Shown: positions 2,166-60,300 of the stretch, in pieces
Layout: each line of letters opens with the position of its first letter
Numbering within the stretch: the stretch's first letter is position 1
From: Eledone cirrhosa
Lineage: Eukaryota
Direction: 5' to 3'
Length of the DNA: 64,000 nucleotides
Assembly (NCBI GenBank): GCA_964016885.1
Contig: OZ024741.1
Location: 43,958,001-44,022,000, forward strand
Notes under the pieces: model-generated
Seen by the model: the letters and a program-made list of their open reading frames with translations, nothing else
Told to the model about the DNA's origin: nothing
Database searches by the model: none
Position numbers and translations under genes: made by a program

Positions 2166-2717
2166 ACAGTTCGTCCACATCGATTTAAAATAATAATAAT
2201 AATAAATCGACAAAAACTAGCTGTGCCGCCAAATGGCTATGATGTTTATACATATTTAAATTTCAAAGTCAAACCTGTTCAGTAGATAAGTTTAAACCTC
2301 AAAATCGAAACATGTTTCGAGATGGATACGTGTATAAGTGTAGGAATATCTTAATATAACGGCTCTTCGTCAAGCTAAAATTCGCCTCATATATACGACT
2401 GTTATTTCTAGCAGTACGGTTATGAGACTAGCCTGAATTTGTGAACCCATGTGCGTCACACAGTCTTTTAAATTATTTAGAAGTGAAGCTTATCAATTGT
2501 CTCTGGATGTTTACTGAGGAGAGCAGTGGCAAGATATTCCTACACTTATACACGTATCCATCTCGAAACATGTTTGGATTTTGAGGTTTAAACTTATCTA
2601 CTGAACAGGTTTGACTTTGAAATTTAAATATGTATAAACATCATAGCCATTTGGCGGCACAGCTAGTTTTTGTCGATTTATTATTATTATTATTTTAAAT
2701 CGATGTGGACGAACTGT
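2166..2717. repeat. Inverted repeat, about 185 bp arms (2166-2352 / 2531-2717)
   Basis: Arms are reverse complements; ORFs 2085(+) and 2598(-) share TVRPHRFKIIIIINRQKLAVPPNG. Confidence 0.95.
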
Positions 2718-3842
2718 ATCAATAACATTGATACAAAGGCTGACACCTGGACTTACAGGGCACATACAACAAATACAGACAGCCCAGCAGACCGAATATC
2801 CAGTCAGCACAGTCCCAGCAACTACAACAGTCTTGCCAACAATAGGGCAGATGTATCCGGTACAACAAGCATAATAACAGCAAATATCCAGGGTCTTTAT
2901 CCGAAAACAAAACAGTGTAAATTCCCTTTCTTGGAAGAATTAGCAACAGAAAACAACTCCAAAATAATTGGAATTACTGAAAGTCATCTCAACGAAAACA
3001 TCCGCAACAGCGAAATCTCAATCAATGGATTCAACATCTTCAGATGTGATAGACAAGGCAGATCCCATGGGGACGTTATGATGTATATCCATGATACCTA
3101 TGCATGCATAGAACTTGTCAATGAATCAAATGCCTACTGCAACCTGCTGTGCATAAAAATCATCCAACTTAATACAGTTGTAAGAATAATGTACAGACCG
3201 CCAAACAGCCCAACATTATCCTTCACTGAGCCACTGACAAAGCTCCAACAAATTCTGGGAAACATGGCGAGTCCAATGCCAGACATTATCCTCCTTGGCG
3301 ACTTCAACTTCCCTAACATCATCTGGCCACATGGACACATACTAAAACTGGGGACAAAAGCTGAACAAATACAGGCAGCCAAACTGTTGGAAGTCACAGA
3401 GAAATTATACCTCAAACAAATGATGAGAGAAGCAGCTAGAAATAATAATACGATCGACTTGGTTTTCACCAACAACGAGGACACGCTATTTGACCTTCAC
3501 TCAACCCCAACAATCCTTTCAGACCACAATATTATTGAAATGCATTTACACATTGGTAATGAGCCCAATGCCACAACTCTTAAACAAAAGGACATGCCAA
3601 AGTTATGCAGGTATGATTATCACCAGGCAAATTGGGAAACTATTAACAACCAGTTACAAATCATTGACTGGGATCTCTACCTTACTGGGCCAGATAAACA
3701 CAAGAAATTCTTAAACAAGATCGAAGAAATATGTGCAAAAAATATTCCTCTTAAGAAAACCAAATCCACAAAAAAAACCTGTACCACGGGAGCGAAAGAT
3801 CCTGATGCGCAAAAGGACAAGACTAAGAAACAAAACATCTAA
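2718..3842 (+). pseudogene. APE endonuclease portion of LINE ORF2 (frameshift at A-run near 3770)
   Basis: ORF 2670-3842; the first residues are read from the unrelated upstream inverted repeat, LINE-like sequence starts near 2718. Confidence 0.85.
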
Positions 3843-5863
3843 GCTGACATCAAAACATGAACTACAGAAAGTCCTTGACCAAATATACAGATTAGAAGAC
3901 AATCTAAAACAACACTATGATGAAGAACGTAACAATGCAGAAAAGAGAGCTATAGAAAACATCAAGAAAAATCCAAAATGTTTCTACAGTTTTGCAAAGA
4001 AATACTCGAATACCAAGTCAACAATAGGACCTCTCCAGAGACAAAATGGGTATGTAGTGAATAACCCTATTGAAATGGCAGAAATGTTGGGTCAACAGTA
4101 TGAAAGTGTCTTCAGTGAGCCATCTAAAACCATGAAGATCCATGACCCAGGAGAATTCTTCAAGGATATCGACCATACTAAACCTATCCTATCCGACATT
4201 GATTTCAACCCAGAAGGCATAGAAAGAGCCATAGACAAGCTCTCCATGCACTCGGCTGCGGGGCCTGATGGTTTCAATGCCATGCTACTTAAAAACTGCA
4301 AGGTACAATTGTTGAAACCCCTCTACATGATATGGAAGGAATCTATGGAGAATGGCAAAATACCAAATACATATAAAGAAGCACACATAACTCCATTACA
4401 TAAAGGGGACAGCAAATCAAAACCAAAGAACTACCGACCAATCTCACTGATATCACACATTATCAAGGTCTTCGAAAGAATAGTTCGTGGAAAACTGGTT
4501 GAGTTCCTGGAATCCAACAATCTGATGAATTGCAATCAGCATGGATTCAGGTTAGGTAGATCATGTCTTTCCCAACTACTGGCACACCATGACCAAATCC
4601 TAGGAAATCTAGAGAATGGATACAACACAGATGTTATTTACCTCGACTTTGCCAAGGCATTTGACAAGGTAGATCATGGCATCCTGGTACACAAACTTCG
4701 AAAGCTAGGAGTAGGAGGAAAATTTGGTACATGGATACATGAATTCCTTATAAATAGAACTCAAACAGTCACTGTGAATGGAACCCATTCAACACCATCA
4801 CCTGTGACCAGCAGTGTTCCTCAGGGTACAGTACTCGGCCCGATCCTGTTTCTCATCCTCATCTCTGCCATAGATGAAGATACAACCAGCAACGTCTCAT
4901 CCTTTGCTGATGACACCAGGGTCATGAGACAAATCAAAGACGAGGTGGATACAGAGGCCTTACAAAAGGACCCAACCACCATATACAAATGGCAGGAAAC
5001 AAACAACATGTTGTTCAATGATAAGAAGTTTGAACTAATTCGCTACGGAACAGATCAAGATCTGAAAAATACAACAAACTACAGAAACCCATCAGGACAA
5101 CAAATAATGGAAAAACAGTGTGTGAAACATTTAGGCATCCACATGGGAACCAGCCTAAAATTCAGAGAACACCTTGACTCAGTCTGTCTTACTGCAAGAA
5201 AGTACAGCGCGTGGATCTTGCGCACCTTCAAATCAAGAGATACCTCAACAATGAAAACCCTCTGGAACAGTATGATACTTCCGAGGATTCACTACTGTTC
5301 TCAGTTGTGGTCACCAACAACAAAGGGCCAACTATCTAAGATGGAATCGCTCCAAAGAAATTTTACCTCATACTTCTCAGAAACGAGGGACCTGGACTAT
5401 TGGCAAAGACTCAGAACCTTGAAGATGTACTCAATAGAAAGAAGATTTGAGCGATACCGAATAATATACATTTGGAAAAATGATAGAGCAAAAGGTGCCA
5501 AACTTTGGTATCAAAACCTACCACTCACTGCGCCACGGAAGACGCTGCCAGCTACCACCAATCAACAAAAGGGCTGGCCAGGCAGCAAAAACCCTGCGAG
5601 AGTCAAGTCTGTTGGTTAGAGGGGCACAACTATTCAACTCCATTCCGGTACATGTCAGAAATCTATCAGGATGCAGTGTGGAATCATTCAAATTGCAGCT
5701 GGATAGATACTTAAGCACCATTAGAGATGAACCCCATCTCCCAGGATATACACAACGAGCACAAACTGACTCAAACTCGCTCCTACACATGTCAAAATTA
5801 AACAGAGAATCCAACCTGGCAACCACACCAGACTCTGAGGGTGGAGTCTTCGACTTGACCTGA
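3733..5863 (+). pseudogene. Reverse transcriptase and C-terminal portion of LINE ORF2 (second frameshift at A-run near 5478)
   Basis: ORF 3733-5619 carries the RT motifs; ORF 5480-5863 continues with GAQLFNSIP...FKLQLDRYLSTIRDEP, a typical LINE C-terminus. Confidence 0.88.
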
Positions 5864-18702: not shown

Positions 18703-18741
<39 letters not shown>

Positions 18742-19322
18742 TATAGATAGGTAAATATACACGGGTGTGTATGATTGTGTATAGAAGATTATATTAATAA
18801 GAGGAATTCCAACTTTGTCTGATTTACTCGTTTTATTTACAATCCTTTAAAATATGTAATGGTATTATAATGAAATAGCATGATAGAATATTAAATTCTA
18901 AGTGTTAATTGAACAAATACTTTAATGCTTTCGCAATCTTCAGGTTCATAATATGTGGTGACAGTCGAGTTTGCAATTTTCAACTGTAATGAGATGGGTA
19001 AATTTCCTAACCTTTATACATTTTGTACAGAGAAAAGTGGCTCCAGAATGCTAAGCCCTGTAAACTGTATTTCGACCAATCAGTGTCTAGTTTCACTGAA
19101 TTACTAAAGCTGATTGGTTTAAGCGTCACGGCTGGTTGAGCATGCTAAAGACCAATGATCATATCCAAAGCATCAATTGTTTTGCTATGTTCAGAAATGA
19201 TGAAAATAGCATTTTCTATTAATCATCACCATCAACATCACTTTTATTATTATTATTGTTGTTGTTGTTGTTGTTGTTGGTAGTGGTCATAGTGGTAGTA
19301 GAAGTAGTACACCTAAGCGTTA

Positions 19323-20093
19323 TTATTGTTCATTTAGCTTGGGTTTGAATTTATCAATAAAATTATTTTCTTTGATTTTTCTCTTGATTTCACTTGGGCT
19401 GTATAATTTGTAGAATGGGAATATTATAAATATTCCCTGACCACATGTTGCCTGGTGGCCGCTTAGGGGTATCTGACGGACATTTGGGTCTCTGATTTGT
19501 TGACGGTGTACCCGTGCACGTTTCGATAGTGCATTTCCAGTTTGACCGACATATAGTTCTTCACAATTCGGGCATTTAATGCAGTAAATTAGATTTCTGC
19601 TTTTGCAGTTCATATTTGCATTTGGGAATATTTTTCCAATTTTTGTTTTCATATATTGACCGGCGTGTATGGATTGACATGTGCCGCATCGATTATCATT
19701 GCATTTAGATACAGTGAATGATTGGTCTTTGTTGATAAGGTCAAACTTTGCTTTTGTTAGTAATTGCTTCAAATGTTTTGGCTGTCTTTTACTAAGAGTC
19801 AAAGATCGATCTGTGATTAAGCCTTTTAATTCATTACTTTGAGCAATGATCGGTAGGTTTGCTTTGGCAGTGTTGAAGATATTCTGGTGACATGGGTTGT
19901 GTGCCATTATAATTGGTATGACCAGTTCTTGGTTTCTTCTTCCTTGGGTTGTCCTAAGTTGTTGTATAAGTATTTTTATAGCCCGATGTATGCCATTTTC
20001 TATAAGTAGAGATGGTTTTTTTGTTTGAGCAAAAATTCTCTTAGTTCTGTTAGGCGTTTGTACCTGGTATTCGTATCTTCTACAATGGTACAA
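19323..20093 (-). pseudogene. Inverted duplicate of PLE thumb, Zn-linker and GIY-YIG region
   Basis: 256-aa ORF nearly identical to 22126-22835 and lacking the break at about 22380. Confidence 0.92.
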
Positions 20094-20599
20094 ATTCTTA
20101 TAGCCAGGCAGTATGGGTATCCTCCTTCAGTTCTTGGTGGTTGACTGTTGGAGTCGGTGTGAATTTCAGTCCTTTTGACAGAATTTGCATTTCTTCATTG
20201 TCAAGATCTTTTTCTTCCTGTTAGCATTATTTTTAACAATCTGGGAAAATGACCTAGGCTTGCTTTCAGGTTTAGATCGTTTTTTCGTCCAATTTCTTGT
20301 GGGCAATCTCTGTTGAGATATTGAGAGTGATCTGGTTATTCTACGATCTAAACCTGAAAGCAAACATAAGTCATTTTCCCAGATTGTTAAAAATAATGCT
20401 AACAATAATATACAGAATACCAAAAATAGGACAAAATACATAACGAAACCAAATATAATATCACGACCAAAAGTTCATCAAGCGAACACCAACAGGAATA
20501 TAAATCCTGAACAGAGAAAAATCCATTTTTTAACGTCAGGACAACAAAAACCGGAAAAAGAAAAACTCCAGGAGGGAACATACCCAAAACAGCTGTACA

Positions 20600-22835
20600 C
20601 GTAGATCCTAAAATAATTAATTTATCTAAAAGAGATCTTGACAATGATGAAATGCAAATTCTGTCAAAAGGACTGAAATTCACACCGACTCCAACAGTCA
20701 ACCACCAAGAACTGAAGGAGGATACCCAAGAATTCTGTCGAAAATTACGTCTTGTAGAATTCTTCGCTCATAAAAATAATGAGAGTGATGAATCACTATT
20801 AAAGAATAAATCAAATTTCACTCCGCCAAAAGGAAGAAATATCTATCTCGACCAATACATTGACATCCTGTCTAAATTTCCTCTTAGACATAATACTAAT
20901 GTTAGGCCAAACATTAACAAATCAGAAATGTCTGCACTTAAACGTATACAAAATGATAAAACAATAATAATTAAACAAGCAGATAAAGGGGGTGCAGTTG
21001 TTATAATGGATACTGAATACTACAAGGATTTGGTTGAGGAACAACTGAAAGACAACATTCTATCATGAAATACCGTCAAATATAGACCACAACATCATGA
21101 AGAAGATCAACAACCTGGCTTCAAAATACCACAACTCATTTACTGATAAGGAAAGAGACTGCATCACCAATTTTGAGCCGAAACCCAGCAACCTGTATGG
21201 CCTACCGAAAGTTCATAAGTCAAAAGAAATACAACTGGCAGTAAGAGAACAAAACAGTGAGTACATTAAATTATTACACCCAAAAGACTTAAAACTTAGA
21301 CCTATTATAGCTGGTCCAACATGCCCCACCCACCGTCTAAGCAATTTTGTTGACATTATTTTGAAACCACTATGAATTCACATACCCAGTTTCATCCGGG
21401 ATGATATCGACTTCCTGTCCCATCTTCCCAAAACCACGGAAACGAATTCACTTCTACTCAGTTTTGATGTGGTAAGCCTTTACACCAACATTACACATGA
21501 TTTAGCAATAAAGGCGGTTAAATACTGGGTGGAAAAACATAGAGAAGTGATTCCCATCAGATTCTCAGCGCCATTTATATTAGACGCAGTTAAACTTATT
21601 CTGGAAAACAACACTTTCATCTTCAATGGAAATAATTACATCCAAATTAGAGGCACAGCGATGGGAACGAAGTTTGCTCCCGTTTACGCGAACTCTGTAA
21701 TGGGATACTTAGAACAACAACTCTACCAAAAAATAGAGGAAAAATATAGTACTGACTTTAGAAAGTACATTGAAAAATCTTGGAAGAGATACCTTGACGA
21801 CTGTTTCATCATCTGGACAGAATCTCTAGATACTCTGGATGAGTTCATTATCCTCCTGAATAACCTACACCCAACTCTCCAATTCACAAAAGAGATGAGT
21901 AGGACCAAATTACCATTCCTAGATATAATGATAATCAAAAACGACACCACCATTACCACGGATATATATTATAAACACACAGACACCCATTAATATCTGA
22001 ATTTTAAGTCGTGCCATCCACCTCATACAAAACGCAACATCCCATACTGCCTAGCCAGAAGAATTTGTACCATTGTAGAAGATACGAATACCAGGTACAA
22101 ACGCCTAACGGAACTAAGAGAATTTTTGCTCAAACAAAAATACCCATCTCTACTTATAGAAAATGGCATACAGCGGGCTATAAAAATACCTATACAACAA
22201 CTTAGAACAACCAAAGGAAGAAGAAACCAAGAACTGGTCATACCATTTATAATGACACACAACCCATGTCACCAGAATATCTTCAACACTGCCAAAGCAA
22301 ACCTACCGATCATTGCTCAAAGTAATGAATTAAAAGGCTTAATCACAGATCGATCTTTGACTCTTAGTAAAAGACGCTAAAACATTTGAAGCAATTACTA
22401 ACAAAAGCAAAGTCTGACCTTAACAACAAAGACCAATCATTCACTGTATCTAAATGCAATGATAGTCGATGCGGCACATGTCAATCCATACACGCCGGTC
22501 AATATATGAAAACAAAATCTGGAAAAATATTCCCAAATGCAAATATGAACTGCAAAAGCAGAAATCTAATTTACTGCATTAAATGCCCGAATTGTGAAGA
22601 ACTATATGTCGGTCAAACTGGAAATGCACTATCGGAACGTGAACGGGTACACCGTCAACAAATCAGAGACCCAAATGTCCGTCAGATACCCCTAAGCGGC
22701 CACCTGGCAACATATGGTCAGGGAATATTTATAATATTCCCATTCTACAAATTATACAGCCCAAGTGAAATCAAGAGAAAAATCAAAGAAAATAATTTTA
22801 TTGATAAATTCAAACCCAAGCTAAATGAACAATAA
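20600..22835 (+). pseudogene. PLE RT plus GIY-YIG polyprotein broken by stops and frameshifts
   Basis: Collinear ORFs 20652-21068, 21097-21375, 21469-21993, 22126-22380, 22386-22835. Confidence 0.92.
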
Positions 22836-23215
22836 TAACGCTTAGGGGTACTACTTCTACTACCACTATGACCACGACCACTATCAACAACAACAACAAC
22901 AGCAACAATAATAATAATAAAAGTGATGTTGATGGTGATGATTAATAGAAAATGCTATTTTCATCATTTCTAAACATAGCAAAACAATTGATGCTTTGGA
23001 TATGATCATTGGTCGTTAGCATGCTCAACCAGCCGTGACGCTTAAACCAATCAGCTTTAGTAATTCAGTGAAACTACACACTGATTGGTCGAAATACAGT
23101 TTACAGGGCTTAGCATTCTGGAGCCACTTTTCTCTGTACAAAATGTATAAAAGGTAGGAAATTTACCCATCTCATTACAGTTGAAAATTGCAAACTCGAC
23201 TGTCACCACATATTA

Positions 23216-23254
23216 TGAACCTGAAGATTGCGAAAGCATGAAAGTATTTGTTCA
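23216..23254 (+). ncRNA. Minimal type I hammerhead in PLE 3' pseudo-LTR
   Basis: tgaac-CTGAAGA-t-tgc-gaaa-gca-t-GAAA-gtat-TT-gttca; inverted copy 18910-18948 has GAAA changed to TAAA. Confidence 0.8.
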
Positions 23255-23641
23255 ATTAACACTTAGAATTTAATGTTCTATCATACTATTTCATTATAAT
23301 ACCATTACATATGTTAAAGGATTGTAAATAAAACGAGTAAATCAGAGAAAGTTGGAATTCCTCTTATTATTATATATATATATATATATAAATATATCTA
23401 TCTATATATATATATCTATCTATCTATCTCTGGGATGGACACACGCGTATAACTTGCTGAGTAAGTTCTGTTTAAATTTCTATAGAAATTCTTGTCTGAT
23501 AACTTTAATTTTTGTACCATTTTGTAGAGGGACTGCCAGGTCAAACTTTGATCTGGTCAGTCTCTCAAAATATTCTACGCCTTTAGGCGAAATAGTTAAA
23601 AAAAAAAGTTTTTTCTTGTTGAAAAGTCAATATTTTTTTAA

Positions 23642-25429: not shown

Positions 25430-25453
25430 GTGCCTTTTCTCTTCACCACCAAC

Positions 25454-28400
25454 ATGGCTATGCTAAGAGTAGGCTGTTTAAATGCGCGTGGCCTGGGCTC
25501 AACTTGGAAGCAAGCAATGCTTCTAAATGACCTCAGGTCACAACGTATAGATGTGATGGTTATTTGCGAGGCCCGGATCAGCAACGTGCGACAGCTGGCC
25601 CCCACCTTTGATGACTTTGAGATGCACGCATCTCTCTGTCAGCCCGGAGGTGGGGGTGGAGTTGTCGTTCTGCTGCAAAAACATCTGGGTCTCGCAACAC
25701 AGATGGTACATTTGGACCCGGAGGGTCGACTAGTGGTTCTGGACCTTGGCAGTGGTAAAGGCGGAGCGTTTAGGTTGGTAGCCGCCTACGGCCCTTTCGG
25801 GTCAATGCGGCCGGACTTCTTCCATCGTCTGGAGACTTTTCTAGGGACGTCCCGCTCCTTGCTATTAGTGGGGGACTGGAATGGTATCCTAGATGCACGC
25901 TGGGACTACGTAGGGGCCTGCCCCGATAGAGAGGGGTGTAATAGCCTCAAAGGGTTAATCGGTCGATTTGACCTGGCCGATAGATATCGACTAGATTTTC
26001 CGACTGCGCCAACCTGGACTTGGGCAAATCGTAGCGGATCATCTAGGTCGTACCTAGATAGGTTCTTAGTTAGAATTAAGGATAAGGACTTTTTAAGTTG
26101 TCCAAAAATGCGCATGGTTGGCTATTCAGACCACAAATTAGTGACCTGCATGGTCAACCTTGACAGAACTCATAGACAGGGCCCCGGTTACTGGAAGCTC
26201 AACTTGTCCTTGCCGGCAAGTAGAGCCTACAGGAATCGGATTAGTACGTTAGTTAAGGAACGGTTGACTGGAGCGATCGTCAACAGCAGGTGGTGGGTAT
26301 CTCTAAAGAGAGAGATTAGAGTAGTCTCGATAGAATTTAGTAAGGTTCTAGCTGCGGATAGGAATAGGAAGGAAAGGGAGCTAATAGATAGAGTAGAAGA
26401 GGCAATTAGAAGCGGCGACGTGGCCAGAGTGCTAGCGTCGAGAACGGCTTTGAGCCAGTTTTTCGACGCGAAGCACGAAGGCTGCGTTGTCCGAAGTAAA
26501 ATACGTGCTCTAGGGAACGAGGGGACCAAAGCTGTTAGCTGGGCCCGCGTGACAGAGGCCAACAGTGGAACTAAATCCACCATCCGGTCTTTGCGAGACC
26601 TGGATGGACGGGCGATTCTTGAGCCTAAGCAGATGTGTGAGGCCTTTCAAAGGCACTTTGCCCGACTGTTCGGGAGGGGCGGGGAGCCGGTTGGGAACGT
26701 GGACTTCGGTCCATACCTCGACGGCCTGCCGCGCCTCTCGGACAGGGAGGCGAAGTCCTGCGAGGAGCCGATTTCGGCCGCTGAGATAGAGGACGTGCTG
26801 AGCCAATGCGGCAAACGCAAATCCCCGGGTCTCGATGGTCTTCCTTACGAATTATATCTAGCTATGCCGGACTTATTCCCCAATCTCCTCGAGGCGGTCT
26901 ACTGCAACTGGCAACAGAACGGGAGAATTCCCTGTACTGTGACCAAGGGCGTAGTCACGCTAGTGAGGAAGGACGAGAACAAGGGGGACGAAATAAGTAA
27001 CTTCAGGCCCATAACACTGCTAAATACAGAGTTACAGATTTTGGCCAAGGTGCTAGCAAAGAGGTTGGCGCTTGTCGTGGGCAACCTGGTGGGAGATGCG
27101 CAGACATGCGCTATCCCGTCCAGGTCCATCCATGACAACCTCCACCTCATGCGATACATCATAGAGAGGGTTGGGAACGAACCCGGCTTTGGTGGGGCTC
27201 TGATCAACTTGGATCAATCTAAGGCGTTCGATAGGGTCGACCATGGTTACCTGGATGCGGTGCTAGCGGCGGCAGGCTTCGGACCCGTTTTCAGGGGCTG
27301 GATCACTGCTATGCACAGCAGCCGCATCTGCTCTAGGGTCAAGGTGAACGGCTACCTCTCGGAGCCGTTCCAAATCGCGCGGTCCATCCGACAAGGGTGC
27401 CCTCTCTCCTCCCTTCTGTATGTGTTGACTCTCGAGCCACTACTGCGGAAGTTGGAGTTGTTGCAGGGCATCCCCTTGGAACCGGGATTGCGGAAAGCGG
27501 TGTCGGCCTACGCCGATGACGTGACAGTAATGGTGTCAACGGCCTCCGAAATCGAGGCGGTCGGCACCTTACTGGAGGAGTACGAAAGGTTCACAGGGGC
27601 TAAGCTGAACCGGGACAAGTCGATCGGTTTGCAACTCGGCACGTGGAGGGGCAGACCGATGCCCTCCGATAGCGTCGTCGGACGCTGGACGGAGGGCCCG
27701 GTGAAGTTGCTCGGGGTCTGGTTCGGACCGGACCTCCAGGTGGAGAAAAACTGGGCGGAGGTTACGAACAGGGTGTTTGCACTGACCCAGAAGTGGGCCA
27801 GTTGCAAACTATCCCTGAAAGGTCGGGCGGAAGTGGCGAACACCTACATAGCGTCCGTCATCTACTACCGCCTGACCGTAGTGCCCTGCCCAAGGGAAAC
27901 CCTCACCAAGATGGAGCGCGCGCTCTTCCAATTCCTTTGGAAGAGGCGGGCTCCTATGGTGAGGAGATCCATCTGCTGTCAACACCCTTCGAAAGGAGGG
28001 CTGGGGATGCCGTGGCTAATGATGCGTAAACACGCATTAAGGCTACGGCACCTCTACGTATTCCTCACCGGACAACCGGTGTGGGCCTCGTTTGTGAGAC
28101 GAACCTTTCCCAGACTCGTCTCACTCACCGAGCTGCAATCCTGGGTCAAGCAAAGACCGAGAAAACTGGGCGCCTGGCACACTGAGTGTGCCCAGGCGCT
28201 CACCGCCCTCTGGCAGGCGGATCCGGTTATCAGTGGAGACTCCACCGCAACATTCTATAGAGGGCTGGTACGCAGCAGGTGCGACGACGCCCTCGGAGAA
28301 GCCCTAGACATGGAGGAGGACGAACTGGCCAGCCTGTTCGGTAGGACATTCAGCCCAGGACCTATGGACAACTTCCAGAAGTCCCTGGCCTGGCAGTGCT

Positions 28401-28891
28401 ACCGAGGGGCTTTACCCGTTCGAGAAAGGCTCTACAGACACGGGCGCCCGGGTAGGGACCCCGCCAAAAAGATCTGTCCCAGATGCGTGTGCGACGAGGA
28501 AACCGTTGCACACGCATTGGTACACTGCTCGGGCGTAGCCGATCTGTGGGGCTATGTCGAACAACTGCTGTCAAGGGTGGGACCGATCCGGTTGACCACC
28601 GAGTCTATTGTAATGATCAAGCCGCCTCCCCCCTTCAAAGATGAAGCAGAGGCGGTGTTTCTGTGCGTAATAGCCATGGCGAAAGAGGTTGTATGGTGGA
28701 CGCGTCTGAAAGGACTGAGGTCAGGCACCTTTCTCTCTGGCCAACAACTGGTCCGTTTCTTCCGATATCATTTCGGAAGAAGGATCAGGATGGAGAGAGA
28801 GGTGCTGCACCCCAGCCGTTTCTATGAAAGATGGGTGAAAGTGGCGAGAATGGCCCGTGTGAATGGGCCTTCACTCTACATCAGACTATAG
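25454..28891 (+). CDS. LINE ORF2: APE endonuclease, reverse transcriptase and C-terminal Zn finger
   Basis: CLNARGL, VGDWN, YLDRF, SDH; KSPGLDGLP, NFRPITLLN, LDQSKAFDRVDH, RQGCPLS, YADD; CPRC..ETVAHALVHC. First in-frame ATG at 25454. Confidence 0.95.
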   Translation: MAMLRVGCLNARGLGSTWKQAMLLNDLRSQRIDVMVICEARISNVRQLAPTFDDFEMHASLCQPGGGGGVVVLLQKHLGLATQMVHLDPEGRLVVLDLGSGKGGAFRLVAAYGPFGSMRPDFFHRLETFLGTSRSLLLVGDWNGILDARWDYVGACPDREGCNSLKGLIGRFDLADRYRLDFPTAPTWTWANRSGSSRSYLDRFLVRIKDKDFLSCPKMRMVGYSDHKLVTCMVNLDRTHRQGPGYWKLNLSLPASRAYRNRISTLVKERLTGAIVNSRWWVSLKREIRVVSIEFSKVLAADRNRKERELIDRVEEAIRSGDVARVLASRTALSQFFDAKHEGCVVRSKIRALGNEGTKAVSWARVTEANSGTKSTIRSLRDLDGRAILEPKQMCEAFQRHFARLFGRGGEPVGNVDFGPYLDGLPRLSDREAKSCEEPISAAEIEDVLSQCGKRKSPGLDGLPYELYLAMPDLFPNLLEAVYCNWQQNGRIPCTVTKGVVTLVRKDENKGDEISNFRPITLLNTELQILAKVLAKRLALVVGNLVGDAQTCAIPSRSIHDNLHLMRYIIERVGNEPGFGGALINLDQSKAFDRVDHGYLDAVLAAAGFGPVFRGWITAMHSSRICSRVKVNGYLSEPFQIARSIRQGCPLSSLLYVLTLEPLLRKLELLQGIPLEPGLRKAVSAYADDVTVMVSTASEIEAVGTLLEEYERFTGAKLNRDKSIGLQLGTWRGRPMPSDSVVGRWTEGPVKLLGVWFGPDLQVEKNWAEVTNRVFALTQKWASCKLSLKGRAEVANTYIASVIYYRLTVVPCPRETLTKMERALFQFLWKRRAPMVRRSICCQHPSKGGLGMPWLMMRKHALRLRHLYVFLTGQPVWASFVRRTFPRLVSLTELQSWVKQRPRKLGAWHTECAQALTALWQADPVISGDSTATFYRGLVRSRCDDALGEALDMEEDELASLFGRTFSPGPMDNFQKSLAWQCYRGALPVRERLYRHGRPGRDPAKKICPRCVCDEETVAHALVHCSGVADLWGYVEQLLSRVGPIRLTTESIVMIKPPPPFKDEAEAVFLCVIAMAKEVVWWTRLKGLRSGTFLSGQQLVRFFRYHFGRRIRMEREVLHPSRFYERWVKVARMARVNGPSLYIRL

Positions 28892-30019: not shown

Positions 30020-30267
30020 TTAATCTGTTATTTTAATATATATATATATATATATATAAACGGAAAAAATGAAACGAAATTTAATTTCCCACACTTAGTA
30101 CGGCTGTTACTTAAATATAAGTATGTACACGTACAATCATACATGCACACAGACGCACAGTAACTCACCGATTAACCCACTCGATATGCAAATCTGGCTG
30201 CTCAGCCGTTAATATTTAAAAGGAAAGTATATACTTTCAGACGTTCAATCATCTGGCAGGAAGGTAT

Positions 30268-30310
30268 ACGTTGCTGACGATAGCTAATAAGCTTGAAACT
30301 AGTACAACGT
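30268..30310 (+). ncRNA. Minimal type I hammerhead
   Basis: acgttg-CTGACGA-t-agct-aata-agct-t-GAAAC-TA-GTA-caacgt. Confidence 0.9.
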
Positions 30311-30695
30311 TCCTTTGTCAGTGTTGATCAAACGAGCAATGGTGGTTGCTAGACACTAGGGCTTAATACGGGATGTTTGTTTACAAACACACCGAGCATC
30401 ATAATAAATGATCGGTGAATCCATACGTACATATATATATGTATGCATGTATGTATATATGTATACATACTTCTGTGCGTCTGTGTGCATGTATGTATGT
30501 ACGTGTACATATTTATATTTAAGTAACAGCCGTACTAAGAGTGGGAAATGAAATTTCGTTTCATTTTTTCCGTTTATCGTTTTCGGAGTACCCGGCCGAT
30601 TAACCCATTCGATATGCAAATTAGGCGGCTCAGCCGTTAATATCCATAAGGAAAGTATATACTTTCCGACGTTCAATCATCTGGCAGGAAGGTAT

Positions 30696-30738
30696 ACGTT
30701 GCTGACGATAGCTAATAAGCTTGAAACTAGTACAGCGT
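30696..30738 (+). ncRNA. Minimal type I hammerhead, tandem copy
   Basis: Same as 30268 with stem I acgttg/cagcgt (G-U wobble). Confidence 0.88.
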
Positions 30739-30934
30739 TCCTTTGTCAGTGTTGAACTAACGAGCAACGATGGTTGCTAGACGCTTCGGCTTAATACGGG
30801 ATGTTTGTTTACAAACACACCGACCATTATAATAAATGTTCGGTGAATCCATACGTACATATATATATATGTGTGCATGTATATATGTATACATACTACT
30901 GTGCGTCCGTGTGCATGTATGTATGTACGTGTAC

Positions 30935-31008
<74 letters not shown>

Positions 31009-31141
31009 TCTGAATTTGTTTAGCAAGAATCTTTATCTGAAAGCGTGTATGAAACCGATATTGTTATACTTTGGGAGGGTCATGTTGCCAATATATATAT
31101 ATATATAACAGAGAAGGCAATTAAACAACGTCTATTAGTTT

Positions 31142-31251
31142 AAGCAACTGGTGCGTGTGTTTCTTATTGGCAACATGACCCTCCCAAAGTATAACAATAT
31201 CGGTTTCATACACGCTTTCAGATAAAGATTCTTGCTAAACAAATTCAGAAA

Positions 31252-31299
<48 letters not shown>

Positions 31300-31410
31300 T
31301 TTCTGAATTTGTTTAGCAAGAATCTTTATCTGAAAGCGTGTGTTGAAACCGATATTGTTATACTTTGGGAGGGTCATGTTGCCAATAAGAAACACACGCA
31401 CCAGTTGCTT
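31142..31410. repeat. Palindrome with about 112 bp arms centred on a (TA)n tract; third copy 31007-31092
   Basis: aagcaactggtgcg...cagaaacg-(AT)n-cgtttctg...caccagttgctt; related to the ends of 13273-13664. Confidence 0.93.
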
Positions 31411-31505
31411 TCACTTCAATTTAATATAATAAATTTATAAATTCAGGAATTTATAAATTTCCGGTTGGTTGGTTGGTTCCACAATCAGATGGTTGTTTAT
31501 ATATT

Positions 31506-31548
31506 GTCAAAGTTCTTTCGTCACACATTATGTGACCTCTTCAGTGAC
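31506..31548 (-). ncRNA. Minimal type I hammerhead
   Basis: Minus strand gtca-CTGAAGA-g-gtcacat-aat-gtgtgac-GAAA-gaac-TT-tgac; decayed homolog near 1412-1455(+). Confidence 0.8.
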
Positions 31549-33233
31549 TGGTTATTCTTTTCTTTGTTTTTGTAACTCTCCTTTCTTCTTTCCTACGCAA
31601 ACTTATCACACAACACACACACAGAAACAAATATCATCATGGGATCATATCTGCGTTCTCATCAGATAAAATAGGGATACATGATATGAAGCTTAAAATA
31701 CACTTTTGAATAGTGAAGTTTTAAATCAACATATGAAAAATCATTTAAGATTGATGTATGAGATTGGGAAACAGTGATGGGGGTTAGAAAAGGTAAGGAA
31801 GAGGAGAGGAAGAGAGATGGGTAATAGAGTGAGAGAGATAGCCTTTACCACTGATAAAAAATATATATTGTCTGCCAGAGAGAAGTTAAAAAGCTGTTGG
31901 AAGATAATAGATAATTTAAAAGAATTTGAAATTAAAAGTTAATGAGGTTTATGCATGAAGAGAAAAAGGAATTAAGAATAATATTAAATTAAGGTTTGTA
32001 TATTGAAGGGTTTAATGTGCGAGGAAAAGAAATTATTAATATGTATTATTTAAAATATAAATATTAATGTTATTAAGGATATAATGTGAAAGAAGGAGAA
32101 GAATGAATGAGTTATGAATTTAGAGGAATTAGTTAGGGTTTAAATTTGTTTTTATGTAATGTAATATATGTACGTAATAGATTGTTTTAAAATTAGCGCA
32201 GAAGGTAAAGAAGAAAAGAATGTTTAAGGAAGAAAATATCTAACATCAAAAAATATATATGTTTACGAAATATTTTCTAATGGTAATAATATAATATATT
32301 AAAAGAAATTAGTTAGGGTTTAAGTTTGTTTTTATGTATTGTACTATGTAAAAGTCAAACGAGCATGATAAGATGAGATAAGAGAAATTTAAGGAAGAAA
32401 AATCTAACGTCAAAAAAAATGTTTATGTTTACGAATGACTTTTAAAGTTAATACTATAATGTATTAAAAAAAAAAAATGTTATGGCCAATGATATGAGGA
32501 AAGATGGAAGAATGGATAATGTTGTGGTGAGTAATAATAATAATTGAGAAGTAGTTAGGAAGAAAAAGTACAGATTAGATGTTAGAAATTAAAAAGAAAA
32601 GAGGAAGAAAGGAAAGTGATAAAGAGGAATGATGTAGAATGAGTAACTTGTATTATATAATATATAATAAATAATATTGAAATAAGGTAGAAAGATGGGT
32701 ATATTTTTAATAGAGAAAAAGGATTTTAAACTAGTAAGGTATTAGATATTAGCTGTATACTTTATGGAATGTTTTGTGGAATTTATGCAAGCAGAGAGAA
32801 AATAAATCCGTGCGTCTATTTATTATAGAATTGAAATTAGATATAATGGTAAATTTCTCAGCTAGGCAAATATTACATGTTAAGGATAGGGAGGCATTCA
32901 AGAGTGACGTTTCAGAACTCATATGGTCCTTGAAAGACAAAAATATTAACTATCACATCTCTTGGAGAAAGGTTTGTTCTGCCTCTCCCTACTTGAATGC
33001 CTCCCTATCCAGGACATGTAATCTTTGCTTAGCTGAGAAATTTACATTATATCTAATTTCAATTCTATAATAAAGAGACGCAAGGATTTATTTTCTATCT
33101 GCTTGCATAAATTCTACAGAACATTCCATAAAGTATACAGCTAATATCTAATACCTTACTAGTTTAAAATCCTTTTTCTCAAAAATATACCCATCTTTCT
33201 ACATTATTTCAATATTATTTATTATATATTATA

Positions 33234-51127: not shown

Positions 51128-51982
51128 ATATATGCCAATCTGTTGAACGGTAAAAATATATAGTATTTTCTTAATCATGCATCGGGTGGGTATCCTCATT
51201 TGCATACGGAACGTGTTACGGCCGTCGTTGCCGAATATTAAAAATAAAATTAGAATTTTATTTTTTCACCCTAGTACTGCTGATACATGAATGTAAGTAT
51301 GCACACGTACACATTCACATGTATATACACACACACACATATGCAGATATGTACGTATGGGTTATATCGGACATTAATAAAAATACTCGATTCGTTTATA
51401 AACAAACGGCCCGATTTGAAGCTGTGTCGTGTCGGTGATCGTCACCTACTTACAAACAGGTTTTGAGAAATAATCAACATGTTTCTCACCAGTACCCTTC
51501 ATCGGGACTGTATGCCTCTGCCAGTCTCTTGAACCGTTGAACATATATAGTATTTTCTTAAGTACACATCTTCTGAGATGCCTTATTTGCATACCTTGCC
51601 TAATATTGAAAATAAAAATAAAATTGTATCTCTCGCCATAGCACAGCTAATACATGAATTTAAGTATGCGTACGTACACACATATATATACACACATATA
51701 CATATATTTAATGTATAATAAAAAACACAGTATAATTACTTCATTACCCGAGGTTTCCTGAAACGACGAAGACAAGAGACGTCCTCATTCGTTATTCAGA
51801 TAATGCAAGCAATATTGCCTTATCTGACGAACGAATACGGACGTCTTGTGTTCGTCGTGTTCAGGAAACCTCGGGTAATAAGGTAATTATACTATGTTTT
51901 TTATTATACATTAAATAAATTTAGCTCTGTTACTTACATAGACACGCTTCATTCTTTTTAATTGTTCACGGAAACTTCAACA

Positions 51983-52134: not shown

Positions 52135-52992
52135 TGTTGAAGTTTCCGTGAACAAGTAAAAAGAATGAAGCGTGTCTATGTAAGTAACAGAGATAAATTT
52201 ATTTAATGTATAATAAAAAAACATAGTATAATTACCTTATTACCCGAGGTTTCCTGAACACGACGAACACAAGACGTCGGCATTCGTTCGTCAGATAAGG
52301 CAATATTGCATGCATTATCTGACTAACGAATGAGGACGTCTCTGGTCTTCGTACTTTCAGGAAACCTCGGGTAATGAAGTAATTATACTGTGTTTTTTAT
52401 TATACATTAAATATATATATATGTGTGTATATATATGTGTGTACGTACGCATACTTAAATTCATGTACTAGCTGTGCTATGGCGAGAGATACAATTTTAT
52501 TTTTATTTTCAATATTAGGCAAAGTATGCAAATAAGGCATCTCAGAAGATGTGTACTTAAGAAAATACTATATATGTTCAACGGTTCAAGAGACTGGCAG
52601 AGGCATACAGTTCCGATGAAGGGTACTGGTGAGAAACATGTTGATTATTTCTCAAAACCAGTTTGTAAGTAGGTGACGATCACCGACACGACACAGCTTC
52701 AAATCGGGCCGTTTGTTTATAAACGAATCGAGTATTTTTATTAATGTCCGATATAACCCATACGTACATATCTGTATATGTGTGTGTGTGTATATACATG
52801 TGAATGTGTACGTGTGCATACTTACATTTATGTATCAGCAGTACTAGGGTGAAAAAATAAAATTCTAATTTTATTTTTAATATTCGGCAACGACGGCCGT
52901 AACACGTTCCGTATGCAAATGAGGATACCCACGCGATGCATGATTAAGAAAATACTATATATTTTCAACAGTTCAACAGATTGGCATATATA
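51128..52992. repeat. Large nested palindrome, about 860 bp arms, centred on (TA)n 51985-52131
   Basis: Arms near-identical; each arm contains an inner hairpin (51703-51915, 52200-52415) and tandem units. Confidence 0.96.
51815..51886 (+). ncRNA. Type I hammerhead with 9 bp stem I (mirror 52232-52303 minus; decayed copies 51736-51806 minus, 52313-52382 plus)
   Basis: ttgccttat-CTGACGA-acgaatac..gtgttcgt-cgtgttcag-GAAAC-CTCGG-GTA-ataaggtaa. Confidence 0.75.
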
Positions 52993-53033
52993 CAGTCCTG
53001 ATGAAGCGTAATGAACCTGAAACATGTTGATTG
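52993..53033 (+). ncRNA. Minimal type I hammerhead (diverged tandem copy 52608-52647, 385 bp upstream)
   Basis: cagtc-CTGATGA-ag..ct-GAAAC-AT-GTT-gattg. Confidence 0.75.
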
Positions 53034-53294
53034 TCCCTTAAGGGCCAGTTTATATCAAGCAGGTGACGAATGCTTATAAATCAGGCCGCTTGTTTATAAA
53101 CGAATCCAGCATTATTTTTAATATACGAACAGTAGTATGTATATATATACATACATGCACACATATATATATGTACGTATGGGTTTACCGAACATTTATT
53201 ATAATGTTCGGTTTGTTTGTAAACAAACAGCTCGAATTACGCCGTACAGTGCTCGGCAACCATCGTCGCCGTTTTGTTCAACACTTACATAGGA

Positions 53295-53337
53295 ACGATG
53301 TACTAGTTTCAAGCTTATTAGCTATTGTCAGCATCGT
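53295..53337 (-). ncRNA. Hammerhead of the 30268 family, core G8 mutated
   Basis: acgatg-CTGACAA-tagctaataagctt-GAAAC-TA-GTA-catcgt; compensatory stem I pair relative to 30268. Confidence 0.75.
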
Positions 53338-53827
53338 ATACCTTTCTGTCACACATGTATATATATATGTGTGTGTGTACATGTGCATACATACATTTAT
53401 ATATATTTGTGTATAAAGAGCAGGGACCCGACGGCTGAGCTCAGCCGAGGGTACGATTCTTTATAATATAGCCATACTCTACTACCACAAGTATCGCGCG
53501 CGTGTGTGTGGGGGGGAGGGCTTCGTGTGTGCGTGTATGTGTGCTTTTGTCCGTGATAAAATTGATAATAGAATGTTGTTTTGGTGCACATTTCCTATTA
53601 ACTGAATGTATCATACTATTAGTTACATAAATGTATCATCATTTTCCTCTTTATATCTGAAACACGGTACATCTAACTAATTGTCTAATGTTTATTAAAA
53701 ATATGCCAATATGTTTACATGGCGACAGACTGTTGTGTGGATGAATAATTTTATTAAACTAATTGTGAAAAATTGCACCGAATCGAATTTCTACTATCAC
53801 TTTCTATTATCACTTCATATATATGAG

Positions 53828-55051: not shown

Positions 55052-55149
<98 letters not shown>

Positions 55150-55222
55150 ACAAAATGAAACGAAATTTCATTTCTCACTCTTAGTACGGCTGTTACTTAA
55201 ATATAAGTAACAGTAATACATA

Positions 55223-55277
<55 letters not shown>

Positions 55278-57300: not shown

Positions 57301-60300
57301 TCTATATATATAAAAGCGAGGATGTGTGTGTGTCTGTGTACAAATTTGGATACCTAACGCTTTTACAATTCCCAACCGAATTTGACCAAATTTTCTGTGC
57401 ACGTTGCACCTGTGGCTAAGAGGTTCACATCACAAACATTTTTCAAATCGACCCACCTTGAGCAATAAAAAATCGATGGCAAAATTATTTTTTCTATAGT
57501 GCATGATGTAAGGGATATAACAAACTTTATTGACAATCCTTATAAAGAGAGTGAGAGAAGGGAGATATGGAGACCTTCGTTTTCACTTTCAAAACAACAA
57601 TCATAGTCGGACGAAATTTCAGAAATATAAACATCAGATTCATTTGTAGATAAATCCCTAATATTATCGTTTGTTTCTTGTTTATTCTGAATGTCGTCGT
57701 GTGTAAAACCTCGAAAGTCGGTATCGCTACTTTCATAAGCCATGTTGATACAAAAAAACATTTGTTGCACTTTCAAAGTTAAAAAAAAAACACTTGTTGT
57801 TTTAATTTATTTCACTTTATTAAGTGTTAATTTTCGCGGTAAGGGCCTAATCTCGCAGCAGTCTCGAATTGACGAGATTTTTAGAACAATCCTTATGGAA
57901 CTTTCCATTCAAACCATTGGGACCTACAACCCTTACGTTTTTAAAATAATTTCTTCCACATTTGAGGCAGGCATTATCTATGCTTCCAGCTGTATTCGTA
58001 CATATCAAACTTTATTGACAACGAAGGAACATACTGAACAGGATGTAGTTATTCAAAGGATTTTTTAAGTTTTGCCAGTATATTTTTAATTTTTCTGTAA
58101 CGCTTCAATTCATACATTTTGACTTTACAATGTTTCACCAAATATGCCCCGTAAAAGAAAGTATGCACATATTGGCTCTCGGACTTTGACCTCTCGCTCG
58201 AAGAAAACAATGCGTGTAAATGAGGCTCCACCGAGAACGGAAATTAGACAATAAAAAAATGCGGTGAGTACAGTTATTGCAACATCTTTGTCCGCCGCTG
58301 AGCGTCGGTTAGTGCGGCGAACCAATAATGCTAAAGCAACTGCTGAAGCACGAGCTACAGAGACAGTACAGATATATGAAACATGCCGTGCGCGTAATGC
58401 TTCAGCTAATGCTGCAGCAAGAGCAATTGAAACTGAGAAAGAACGTCAAAGTCGCCAATTGAGAAATGCTTCAGCTACTGCTACGGCACGAGCTGTAGAG
58501 ACTGTAACAAGTCGAGCTATTCGGCAGGAGGGAACGCTTAACGTAGAGCTTTATCGCGGCGTATTTCAAAGGCATCACGCTCACGATGGTACCTTAAGTA
58601 CCATCGTGAGTGTGACCCTAATGTAAACTATCAAATCCATCCTGGTATTCAAATATATGCCATGTCAAATACTTGCCAACATCGTAAAGCTAAAAAGTGG
58701 GCGGGAGAATCGGCTGGAATGTGCTGCTCTAATGGTAAGGTTAATTTGCCCACCCTTAGGGAACCACCGCAACCTCTTCAGATGCTTCTAACAGGTAATC
58801 ATTCACAATCACCTGATTTTCTTAAGCATATCCGACAGTACACCATTGCGTTTCAAATGACCTCTTTTGGTGCAAAACGTCTTAAGGAAGATGGATATAT
58901 CCCGACTTTCAAAGTACAGGGCCAGGTGTATCATCTCATTGGATCTCTGCAACCGCTGCCTACTGAAGAGCCACAATGTTTACAAGTTTACTTTATCGTT
59001 AACTGTCATCAGCAAACAGATAGACGGCAATCGTACACTTCAGACACTAAACTGGAACTCTTGATTGACCTCCAAGACATGCTTCACTCTAACAATAGCT
59101 ACATTCAAAGCATCAAGTATGCTACGCCAAATTACGATATCGTCATTTACGCTGATGAGAGACCATCTGCCGAGCATGCGGGCTGGTATAATGCACCTAC
59201 TTGTAATGAGGTAGCCATCGTTATTAGTGGAGAGAAGCACAAGAGAGACATTATTATCAAGCGACCAGACAATAGCCTTAACAGAATAAGTGAAACCCAT
59301 CGATCTTACGACGCACTCCAGTATCCGCTATTATTTGTTTATGGTGAGGATGGATACCATTTCGGAATTCATCAAATTAATTACACCAACCAAGATGAGC
59401 ATACTACGAACATTGTCACGGGCTTGGATTTTTATGCTTTCCAATTCATGATCCGCGACAGCTGCTTCAACCAGCTGCACCGATCACAAGACCTCTTCAA
59501 TCAATTTTGAAGTTGACATGTTCGCGAAAATGGAGTCCGAGAGATTATGCTTCATTCGACTTAATCAGAAACAACTTTGCTGTGACAGTTACATTCAGCT
59601 TCGTGATAGTATTGGACTGTTGTGTATCCTGCCTTCATCTTTCACAGGATGTCCTCGGTTCTTTTTCGAAAAAATTCATGATGCTTTAATTATTGTGCGC
59701 CTTTTCGGTAAACCAGATTTCACTTCAAACCCAAAATGGGAAGAGATTCAGAAAGAACTCTTTCCAGGTTAAAAAGCCACAGCCAGGCATGATCTTATTG
59801 CCAGAGTTTTCCATCTTAAGTTAATTAAGCTCATGGAAATTATCAAAACAGTTTTCTTTAAACTATGTCAAGAAGATCCATTTGCTAAAACCTTGCTATA
59901 TCCACAAGTCCCATCTTACTATACCTGGGACAAAAATACATGGAAGCGAAGAATAACGACAGTGCGTCGAAGGTTATCCGAGCATCAAGTTCAACGAGTG
60001 CTTGGGCAGAGTTTATACTGTGCCCCCAAACCAACACGATTGTTTCCATCTTCGCATGCCACTACATGAGGTCAGAGGACCTACCTACTTTGATGATCGC
60101 CGAACGTTAGACGGACAAGTTCTTCCAACATACACAAAGCATGTTTGAGGCGTGGATAGCTGGAAGATGGTTCGCAGTGGGATGTAACGATGGCGGAAGT
60201 TGCTCTTTCACATTCACCTGCCAGCCTAAAAAAATTATTTGGGGTACTTTTGCACTCGTGCAACTTATCTGATCCTCTGTCCTTGTGGATGAAATATAGG

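What the first reader, a model, noticed from the sequence alone, without database searches (positions are those of the whole stretch)
30059..30945. Tandem 428 bp HHR units predicted to release a unit-length, possibly circular RNA
Seen: two same-orientation canonical HHRs with predicted cuts after 30304 and 30732, 428 nt apart, in a non-coding tandem with an inverted terminal piece. A third copy at 53295(-) has a compensatory stem I change (acgttg/caacgt versus acgatg/catcgt), which is direct evidence of selection on structure. Architecture matches retrozymes.
Basis: partly seen in the sequence, partly recalled or inferred. Interest (0 to 1): 0.72.

Follow-up and report, generated by a model that had tools for sequence, protein, structure and literature searches.

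The report
Two-armed hammerhead retrozyme, Penelope-pasted
This is an ageing copy of a 428-base non-coding repeat, present more than 12,000 times in this animal genome, that carries a predicted self-cutting RNA motif and was likely pasted in by Penelope-type transposon enzymes, probably by copying a small RNA circle from both ends of a DNA break; it is a new member of a known class (animal retrozymes).

Summary
Observation confirmed: two intact type I hammerhead cores, predicted cuts after 30304 and 30732, 428 nt apart, plus an inverted 105-bp arm, all between (TA)n. It is one ageing copy (units 7.6% apart) of a family with at least 12,820 ribozyme copies. The 'inverted piece' is a Penelope-like (PLE) footprint: insertions are two head-to-head arms, and in 40 of 40 pairs with defined ends one arm stops at a short site, the other 59 nt further. 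Three autonomous PLE families here show the same two ends. 61 of 64 arms that reach the cut site run through it, and a young insertion has nine units within 0.7% across both arms, so the template was likely a circle (or an uncut multimer). Corrections: the third copy's compensatory pair is a subfamily trait and its core is mutated (G8A); the proposed back-junction test cannot work, because the genome holds the same junction. No RNA data; cleavage, circles and the helper are untested. Known class (non-LTR retrozymes; PLE link proposed 2020, supported 2026). This scan reached the same reading before on other DNA of this genome, probably including this family.

The parts
30056..30160 (-). Left arm: unit positions 315-419, 3' end at the long ('tail') site, joined to (TA)n
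   Evidence: 95% to 30473-30577 in reverse; long end followed by TA as in most of 67 long ends
30159..30167 (.). Head-to-head junction of the two arms with a few extra bases
   Evidence: sequence; the right arm aligns from unit position 10
30168..30944 (+). Right arm: 1.8 tandem units (positions 10-428, then 1-360), 3' end at the short site, joined to (TA)n
30253..30322 (+). Hammerhead 1 with extended stem I; core at 30274-30304; predicted cut after 30304
   Evidence: activity not tested
30681..30750 (+). Hammerhead 2; core at 30702-30732; predicted cut after 30732
   Evidence: activity not tested
30305..30732 (+). Predicted 428-nt cut-to-cut monomer; ends held together by stem I; 38% GC, 69% paired as a circle
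   Evidence: z -5.5, much of it from the TA/TG microsatellite hairpin; the parts without it z -1.8 and -1.5
30519..30577 (+). 59-nt tail between the short and the long end site (inferred reverse-transcription start sites)
   Evidence: 134 of 153 arm 3' ends fall at these two sites; PMC11167929 equates the PLE tail with the stretch between two RT start sites
30544..30605 (+). Covarying pair 30544:30605 in a predicted helix closing the long-end hairpin
   Evidence: G-C 25, A-U 24, G.U 4, A.C 3 in 56 loci; one of many linked pairs in that scan
30186..30234 (+). Octamer-like ATGCAAAT (30186-30193; again 30614-30621) and TATA-like block (30227-30234): possible internal promoter
   Evidence: both kept in a sister family; no match to this genome's U1/U2 upstream regions; function untested
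53125..53351 (-). Third copy, older subfamily, internal fragment without ends, core G8A (predicted inactive)
55148..55229 (.). Minimal 82-bp family member: long-end arm (minus) plus a few bases of short-end arm (plus), between (TA)n

Best explanation
This is a non-coding retrozyme copy whose two head-to-head arms end at two fixed sites in (TA)n, and it was likely made when a Penelope-like (PLE) enzyme borrowed in trans nicked both strands of a TA repeat and primed reverse transcription from both ends on a probably circular 428-nt RNA. Shown: the repeat family, intact cores, the two-end rule, read-through of the cut site, near-identical units across both arms of young insertions, and active PLEs with the same anatomy. 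Inferred: a tandem transcript folds as a double hammerhead (palindromic helix III) and releases a monomer; a host ligase closes it; the lone ribozyme in the circle is weak, so the circle persists; two RT active sites start at the short and long sites (TAT microhomology to the target), run round for a random length and are joined head to head. This locus is an old product (about 4% decay per unit), not necessarily a source.
For: 12,820 exact ribozyme hits, control 0. In 91 loci, 54 head-to-head pairs and 0 tail-to-tail; 40 of 40 pairs with both ends defined are short+long (p 2e-12; 27 of 27 in position-picked loci). Ends join (TA)n. The same two-end pattern occurs in three autonomous PLE families of this genome, two with many full-length open frames (775 and 784 aa). 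Inverted 5' copy, one-sided tail and (TA)n targeting are PLE hallmarks; a PLE protein cuts and extends both strands, is modelled as a dimer and starts at two internal sites (PMC11167929). Of 71 arms picked without regard to the ribozyme, 64 reach the cut site and 61 run through; 4 stops near it against 3.1 expected. L161: 2.3+7.5 units, short+long ends, 9 cores, units 0-0.7% apart across arms. Rare variants are shared within loci at 6-7% against 0.6% between loci. Double-hammerhead fold -154.9 against -155.4 kcal/mol. Stem I site: 155 of 161 copies pair, in five pair types; a sister family changes stem I on both sides and keeps a palindromic helix III.
Against: Cleavage and circles were not observed. 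Read-through fits an uncut multimer equally well; in PMC11167929 unprocessed RNA was the main substrate and ribozyme mutants still inserted; only 1 of 9 Xenopus dimers cleaved in vitro. A young, apparently active Neptune-type family here carries a degenerate ribozyme (GCAA for GAAA in the 24 of 30 loci where the motif was in range), so PLE mobility need not involve cleavage. No autonomous element shares the unit's sequence, so the helper is unidentified. The two window units share 0 of their 9 and 8 rare variants, and in most multi-unit loci no rare variant is common to all units. Some arrays grew after insertion (2-unit period in L065, 4-unit period in L178), and inverted arms can be homogenised by gene conversion or assembly collapse, which could also explain L161. 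The U.U at the base of helix II may weaken catalysis.
Confidence: 0.68

Rival explanations
1. Same element and same PLE helper, but the template is a linear, uncut multi-unit transcript from a homogeneous tandem source; the ribozyme is slow or idle in vivo and circles, if any, are a by-product.
For: Read-through of the cut site and within-locus similarity fit this too. Unprocessed RNA is the main substrate of the Anolis PLE. Long arrays exist as possible sources (L178, at least 24 units). Helix II lacks G10.1-C11.1.
Against: A 7.5-unit arm with intact cores needs at least seven uncut ribozymes in the dimer-competent context. The one long array examined has units mostly 5-11% apart and could not give L161. 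Core, stem I and the palindrome are conserved across subfamilies and a sister family.
Confidence: 0.22
2. The unit is simply the pseudo-LTR of an autonomous PLE, and these loci are 5'-truncated insertions of that element, later multiplied locally.
For: All end features are PLE features. The 2026 preprint derives vertebrate retrozymes from pLTRs. Neptune-type ribozymes here share the U.U base and a palindromic tetraloop.
Against: Arms continue from unit to unit, never into coding DNA: RT/EN hits in the retrozyme loci were separate neighbours or inverted, and of 120 PLE endonuclease loci the 6 with unit matches were, by their coordinates, adjacent or nested insertions.
Confidence: 0.07
3. A DNA-level satellite or an assembly artefact (fold-back chimera); the ribozyme likeness is incidental.
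For: The window is full of long inverted repeats; old arrays show higher-order periods.
Against: The two arms differ by 4-5% and have different, fixed ends in 40 of 40 pairs, which fold-back artefacts do not give; the repeat is in independent sequencing runs of two labelled organisms; the core is conserved.
Confidence: 0.03

Closest known systems
Metazoan non-LTR retrozymes (Cervera and de la Pena 2020, PMC7229834; passages and sections 14 and 17 read), especially axolotl HHR_Amex1/Amex2 repeats and the mussel repeat
   Same: Tandem 150-450-bp non-coding units, one type I hammerhead each, low GC, thousands of copies; 1-bp helix III with palindromic tetraloop as in Amex1; U.U at the base of helix II as in Amex2; PLEs proposed as helpers, circles as templates.
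   Different: Expression, cleavage and circles were shown there, not here. The passages read do not describe two-armed insertions with fixed short and long ends ('inverted' and 'tail' occur 0 times). Triplet is GUA.
Animal retrozymes as non-autonomous PLE sequences (Li, Clavereau, Pollet 2026, 10.64898/2026.07.22.740005; parts 1-3 of 5 read)
   Same: Retrozymes co-occur with PLEs and resemble pLTRs; two consecutive complete ribozymes is their criterion for 'active', which this locus meets.
   Different: Their evidence is co-occurrence and sequence homology in Xenopus, and they favour local tandem amplification; here there is no sequence homology to a parent, but an insertion footprint that points to multi-unit arms made at insertion.
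Penelope-like elements, Neptune type (Craig et al. 2021, PMC8557442 and its preprint, passages; Frangieh et al. 2024, PMC11167929, parts 1-2 of 4)
   Same: Inverted 5'-truncated copy, tail on one end only, (TA)n targets, two internal RT start sites, ribozyme upstream of the ends. Non-autonomous multicopy head-to-tail elements were noted for Chlamys (MRC1).
   Different: No RT-GIY-YIG frame; tail 59 nt, not 30-40; both start sites have TAT microhomology to the target, whereas the Anolis start sites are not homologous to the cut DNA.

Membership tests
Metazoan non-LTR retrozyme | Tandem units of about 150-450 bp, each with a type I hammerhead | tested here: met
   42 cut-to-cut monomers of 419-434 nt in 18 loci; window 428 nt
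Metazoan non-LTR retrozyme | Non-coding, low GC | tested here: met
   38.3% GC; only a 106-codon antisense frame across the microsatellite, no Pfam hit
Metazoan non-LTR retrozyme | Many dispersed genomic copies, monomers to multimers | tested here: met
   12,820 and 17,123 exact hits; arms of under 1 to at least 24 units
Metazoan non-LTR retrozyme | Target-site duplication longer than 4 bp when present | tested here: inconclusive
   Both flanks are (TA)n, so a duplication cannot be read
Metazoan non-LTR retrozyme | Self-cleavage of the transcript | not testable with these tools
   Only fold predictions
Metazoan non-LTR retrozyme | Accumulates as linear and circular monomer RNA | not testable with these tools
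   No run on record as RNA was available
Type I hammerhead (metazoan canonical form) | Core C3 U4 G5 A6 N7 G8 A9, G12 A13 A14, A15.1-U16.1, H17; helix I 6 bp, II 4 bp, III 1-2 bp with palindromic loop | tested here: met
   Both tandem copies (definition from PMC4209133); third copy fails at G8
Type I hammerhead (metazoan canonical form) | G10.1-C11.1 pair (usual, not universal) | tested here: not met
   U.U instead; the same U.U is described for axolotl HHR_Amex2, which cleaves weakly. No Rfam hammerhead hit
Penelope-like element (insertion signature) | Inverted 5'-truncated copy next to the main arm | tested here: met
   54 head-to-head pairs, 0 tail-to-tail, in 91 loci
Penelope-like element (insertion signature) | Tail on one end only | tested here: met
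   40 of 40 pairs with defined ends; 14 further pairs had an end elsewhere
Penelope-like element (insertion signature) | (TA)n target preference (Neptune, Naiad, Hydra) | tested here: met
   Most of 69 short and 67 long ends run into (TA)n; exceptions include L017, L020, L021, L053, L055, L063
Autonomous Penelope-like element | RT plus GIY-YIG open frame; sequence identity with a pLTR of such an element | tested here: not met
   No frame in the unit; no parent among the PLE families sampled. Filed as non-autonomous only

The most novel reading that the evidence does not exclude
A PLE dimer reverse-transcribes one small circular RNA from both ends of a double-strand nick at once, each active site committed to one of two start sites, rolling round the circle several times: genomic proof of the circle-templated retrotransposition proposed for retrozymes, readable from more than ten thousand insertions, with the ribozyme acting as a switch that cuts in tandems and stays shut in the circle.
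Probability: 0.45. Interest if true: 0.75.

Novelty: new member of a known kind. Interest (0 to 1): 0.5.

Why it matters
How animal retrozymes get back into the genome has been a hypothesis since 2020 (circle as template, PLE as helper). This family leaves a countable footprint: strict short+long end pairing, random arm lengths that ignore the cut site, and young insertions with identical units in both arms. It names the RNA, two start sites, the (TA)n target and candidate enzymes with intact frames in the same genome, so the step can be rebuilt in vitro with an existing PLE assay. The locus itself is an ordinary ageing copy, and the class is known.

Tried and rejected
Rfam: no hammerhead in the whole window or in 30200-30400, only microsatellite-driven miRNA noise. 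Expression: no RNA holder listed; the four unlabelled runs gave contigs that also cover the flanking repeats, so they say nothing on RNA. Parent search: Neptune-type family of the window (30 loci), 30 best GIY-YIG loci, a second Neptune-type family and a divergent family show no alignable pLTR. Two head-to-head chimeras among 61 single arms (L058 with the second Neptune-type family, L029 with the divergent family) implicate different helpers, both pair a short end with a short end, and a deletion between neighbours explains them as well; not counted as proof. A pyrimidine-rich motif at the long end resembles the short end of the second Neptune-type family but similar runs precede the ends of other Neptune-type families; no significance test was run. 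snRNA-type promoter: no octamer in 260 bp upstream of 10 U1/U2 genes and no match of their proximal region to the unit. Editing scars: sense-strand A>G against T>C is 116:45 in the young subfamily, but three recurrent sites give half; low-recurrence sites give 58:33 (p 0.012), old subfamily 26:16 (p 0.22); C>T at CpG is also skewed (80:39), which fits tolerance of G.U pairs as well as editing; kept as a weak hint only. The first cut-site test (2 of 153 5' ends) was biased by picking loci on the ribozyme and was redone with a body pattern. One regular expression matched nothing; the alignment-based count of the same call was used. Genome-wide counts of stem I haplotypes were not obtained; the counts rest on 161 copies, a third of them picked for likeness to unit 1.

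Full report
Observation. The window lies on contig 2 of a 3.0-Gb animal genome; from its size and repeats I take it for an octopus-like cephalopod, which is recall and inference, not a tool result. A pattern scan finds two hammerhead cores on the plus strand at 30274 and 30702, each with a 6-bp stem I, a 4-bp stem II on a U.U mismatch, GAAA, the palindrome CTAG and the triplet GTA; predicted cuts fall after 30304 and 30732, 428 nt apart. Stem I extends through a bulge to about 15 pairs. By the definition in PMC4209133 (passages) this is the canonical metazoan type I form, whose weak helix III needs a second ribozyme; it lacks G10.1-C11.1, like axolotl HHR_Amex2 (PMC7229834). Rfam does not detect it. 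The inverted piece is unit positions 315-419 in reverse. The third copy has the stated stem I change but a G8A core; a G8 change abolished cleavage in the Anolis PLE ribozyme.

Family. The exact ribozyme 22-mer occurs 12,820 times, the reversed control never; a body 22-mer occurs 17,123 times. There is an older subfamily (median 5.4% from its majority) and a younger one (3.4%). The window's two units are 7.6% apart and share none of their 9 and 8 rare variants: an ageing insertion.

Structure evidence. At the variable stem I site 161 copies give U.G 105, A-U 25, U-A 15, G.U 9, C-G 1 and 6 unpaired or gapped. A second pair, 30544:30605, gives G-C 25, A-U 24, G.U 4, A.C 3 in 56 loci and lies in a predicted helix closing the long-end hairpin; that scan also returned many chance-linked pairs. 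A sister family in the window (51205-51615 minus, 52880-53120 plus) aligns along the unit, changes stem I on both sides and swaps CTAG for another palindrome, CATG. The monomer folds at z -5.5 as a circle, but the parts without the microsatellite hairpin reach only -1.8 and -1.5. Forcing the two helix III palindromes of the window's transcript to pair costs 0.5 kcal/mol and yields the full double-hammerhead fold.

Insertion anatomy. In 91 loci (100 fetched, 9 overlapping or self left out) 134 of 153 arm 3' ends fall at two sites, unit position about 360 (70) and 419 (64), each ending in TAT and mostly running into (TA)n. Adjacent opposite arms are head to head in 54 cases, tail to tail in none. 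In 40 of the 54 both ends are defined, and all 40 pair a short with a long end (one is a local duplicate; 27 of 27 in loci picked by position). The window follows the rule: long end at 30056, short end at 30944; an 82-bp copy at 55148-55229 consists of the two ends alone. An inverted truncated copy, a tail on one end and (TA)n targets are PLE hallmarks (10.1101/2021.04.23.441226, passages), and the Anolis PLE protein cuts and extends both strands, is modelled as a dimer and starts at two internal sites that bound the tail (PMC11167929, parts 1-2). A PLE with RT, a C-x4-C-x2-C linker and GIY-YIG domain (Neptune type by that motif) sits at 18737-23371 with the same two-armed build; its family shows short and long ends, 26,680 candidates and 775-aa frames.

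Template. If cut linear monomers were copied, arms could not pass the cut and 5' ends would pile up there. Of 71 arms carrying the first 100 hits of a body pattern, 7 stop before the cut region, 64 reach it and 61 run through; over 92 arrivals 4 stop within positions 144-156 against 3.1 expected. So the template was circular or uncut. L161 holds 2.3 plus 7.5 units head to head with short and long ends, nine cores (one with a stem II change), and units 0-0.7% apart across arms; L167 and L050 are similar. Rare variants are shared in 7.2% (same arm) and 6.0% (opposite arms) of cases against 0.6% between loci. Against over-reading: most multi-unit loci have no rare variant common to all units, L065 and L178 show later duplication, and conversion or assembly collapse can homogenise arrays.

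Helper. No sampled PLE shares the unit's sequence. Neptune-type ribozymes here share the U.U base and a palindromic tetraloop; the tail length is nearer that of the divergent family (about 57 nt). Two of 61 single arms are fused head to head to PLE arms, one to each of those two families; deletions could do the same. The helper stays open.

Mechanism. Shown: family, cores, two fixed ends, strict pairing, read-through, active PLEs of the same build. Inferred: tandem transcript, dimer-dependent cleavage, ligation by a host enzyme (model of PMC7229834, section 17), a circle that a lone weak ribozyme does not reopen, twin priming from a nicked TA repeat, random-length rolling synthesis, head-to-head joining with small overlaps or inserts. 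The main rival is an uncut multimer; the Anolis data, the 8 of 9 silent Xenopus dimers and a mobile PLE family with a degenerate ribozyme keep it alive.

Comparison and novelty. It meets every testable feature of metazoan non-LTR retrozymes (PMC7229834). PLEs were proposed as helpers there, and 10.64898/2026.07.22.740005 (parts 1-3 read) supports a pLTR origin by homology. Searches for a cephalopod retrozyme or for retrozymes with PLE tails returned no such description, and 'tail' does not occur in either retrozyme paper's main text; supplements were not read (those of the preprints are closed) and could list such cases, and most subscription papers are not in the library. The newt satellite 2 internal snRNA-type promoter is known to me only through a citing passage (PMC2220036); the octamer and TATA-like blocks kept in the sister family have no counterpart in this genome's U1/U2 upstream regions. 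I reached the two-arm reading before looking up earlier notes; the scan had it already for several families of this genome, e1-8665316 probably at L161 itself. Those notes gave me the editing, Hydra and fusion leads; none is independent evidence.

Verdict. Real feature; new member of a known class; interest 0.5, for the testable footprint of the family, not for this locus.

Noticed in passing
window 18737-23371: Two-armed Neptune-type PLE (RT, GIY-YIG, ribozyme at 23221) with short and long ends in (TA)n; this copy is broken, the family has 775-aa frames elsewhere.
   Followed up: yes
window 30987-31560: The right flank is itself made of 3' ends of the divergent ('Hydra-like', label untested) PLE family, with a ribozyme at 31544 minus; insertions pile up in the same TA tract.
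   Followed up: partly
window 51205-51615 (minus) and 52880-53120 (plus): Sister retrozyme family, about 73% alike in the body, same octamer, TATA-like block and short-end motif, different stem I and CATG palindrome.
   Followed up: partly
window 29372/29548, 51824/52294, 55658, 34482: Further hammerhead-like motifs with long stem II inside inverted repeats flanked by (TA)n; probably more PLE-type ends.
   Followed up: no
L181-L209 (3' of GIY-YIG frames): Several Neptune-type families carry ribozymes with U3 and A8 in place of C3 and G8, a compensatory core change; one young family also has GCAA for GAAA.
   Followed up: partly
L178 (G000:C5:84414000-84423999): At least 24 tandem units of this repeat, mostly 5-11% apart, with a 4-unit higher-order period: the element has seeded a satellite.
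   Followed up: partly
L058 1076-1751; L029 1400-2671: Head-to-head fusions of a retrozyme arm with a PLE arm; the L029 junction holds short pieces copied from both partners.
   Followed up: partly
window 2667-5619, 25430-28891, 59452-61178: Two endonuclease-RT LINE copies (one 1153-codon frame) and Helitron fragments; also a roughly 190-bp SINE-like repeat in many copies.
   Followed up: no
L271-L294: U1 and U2 genes lie in tandem arrays and share a TCAGT motif about 57 bases upstream of the start, a likely proximal element.
   Followed up: no
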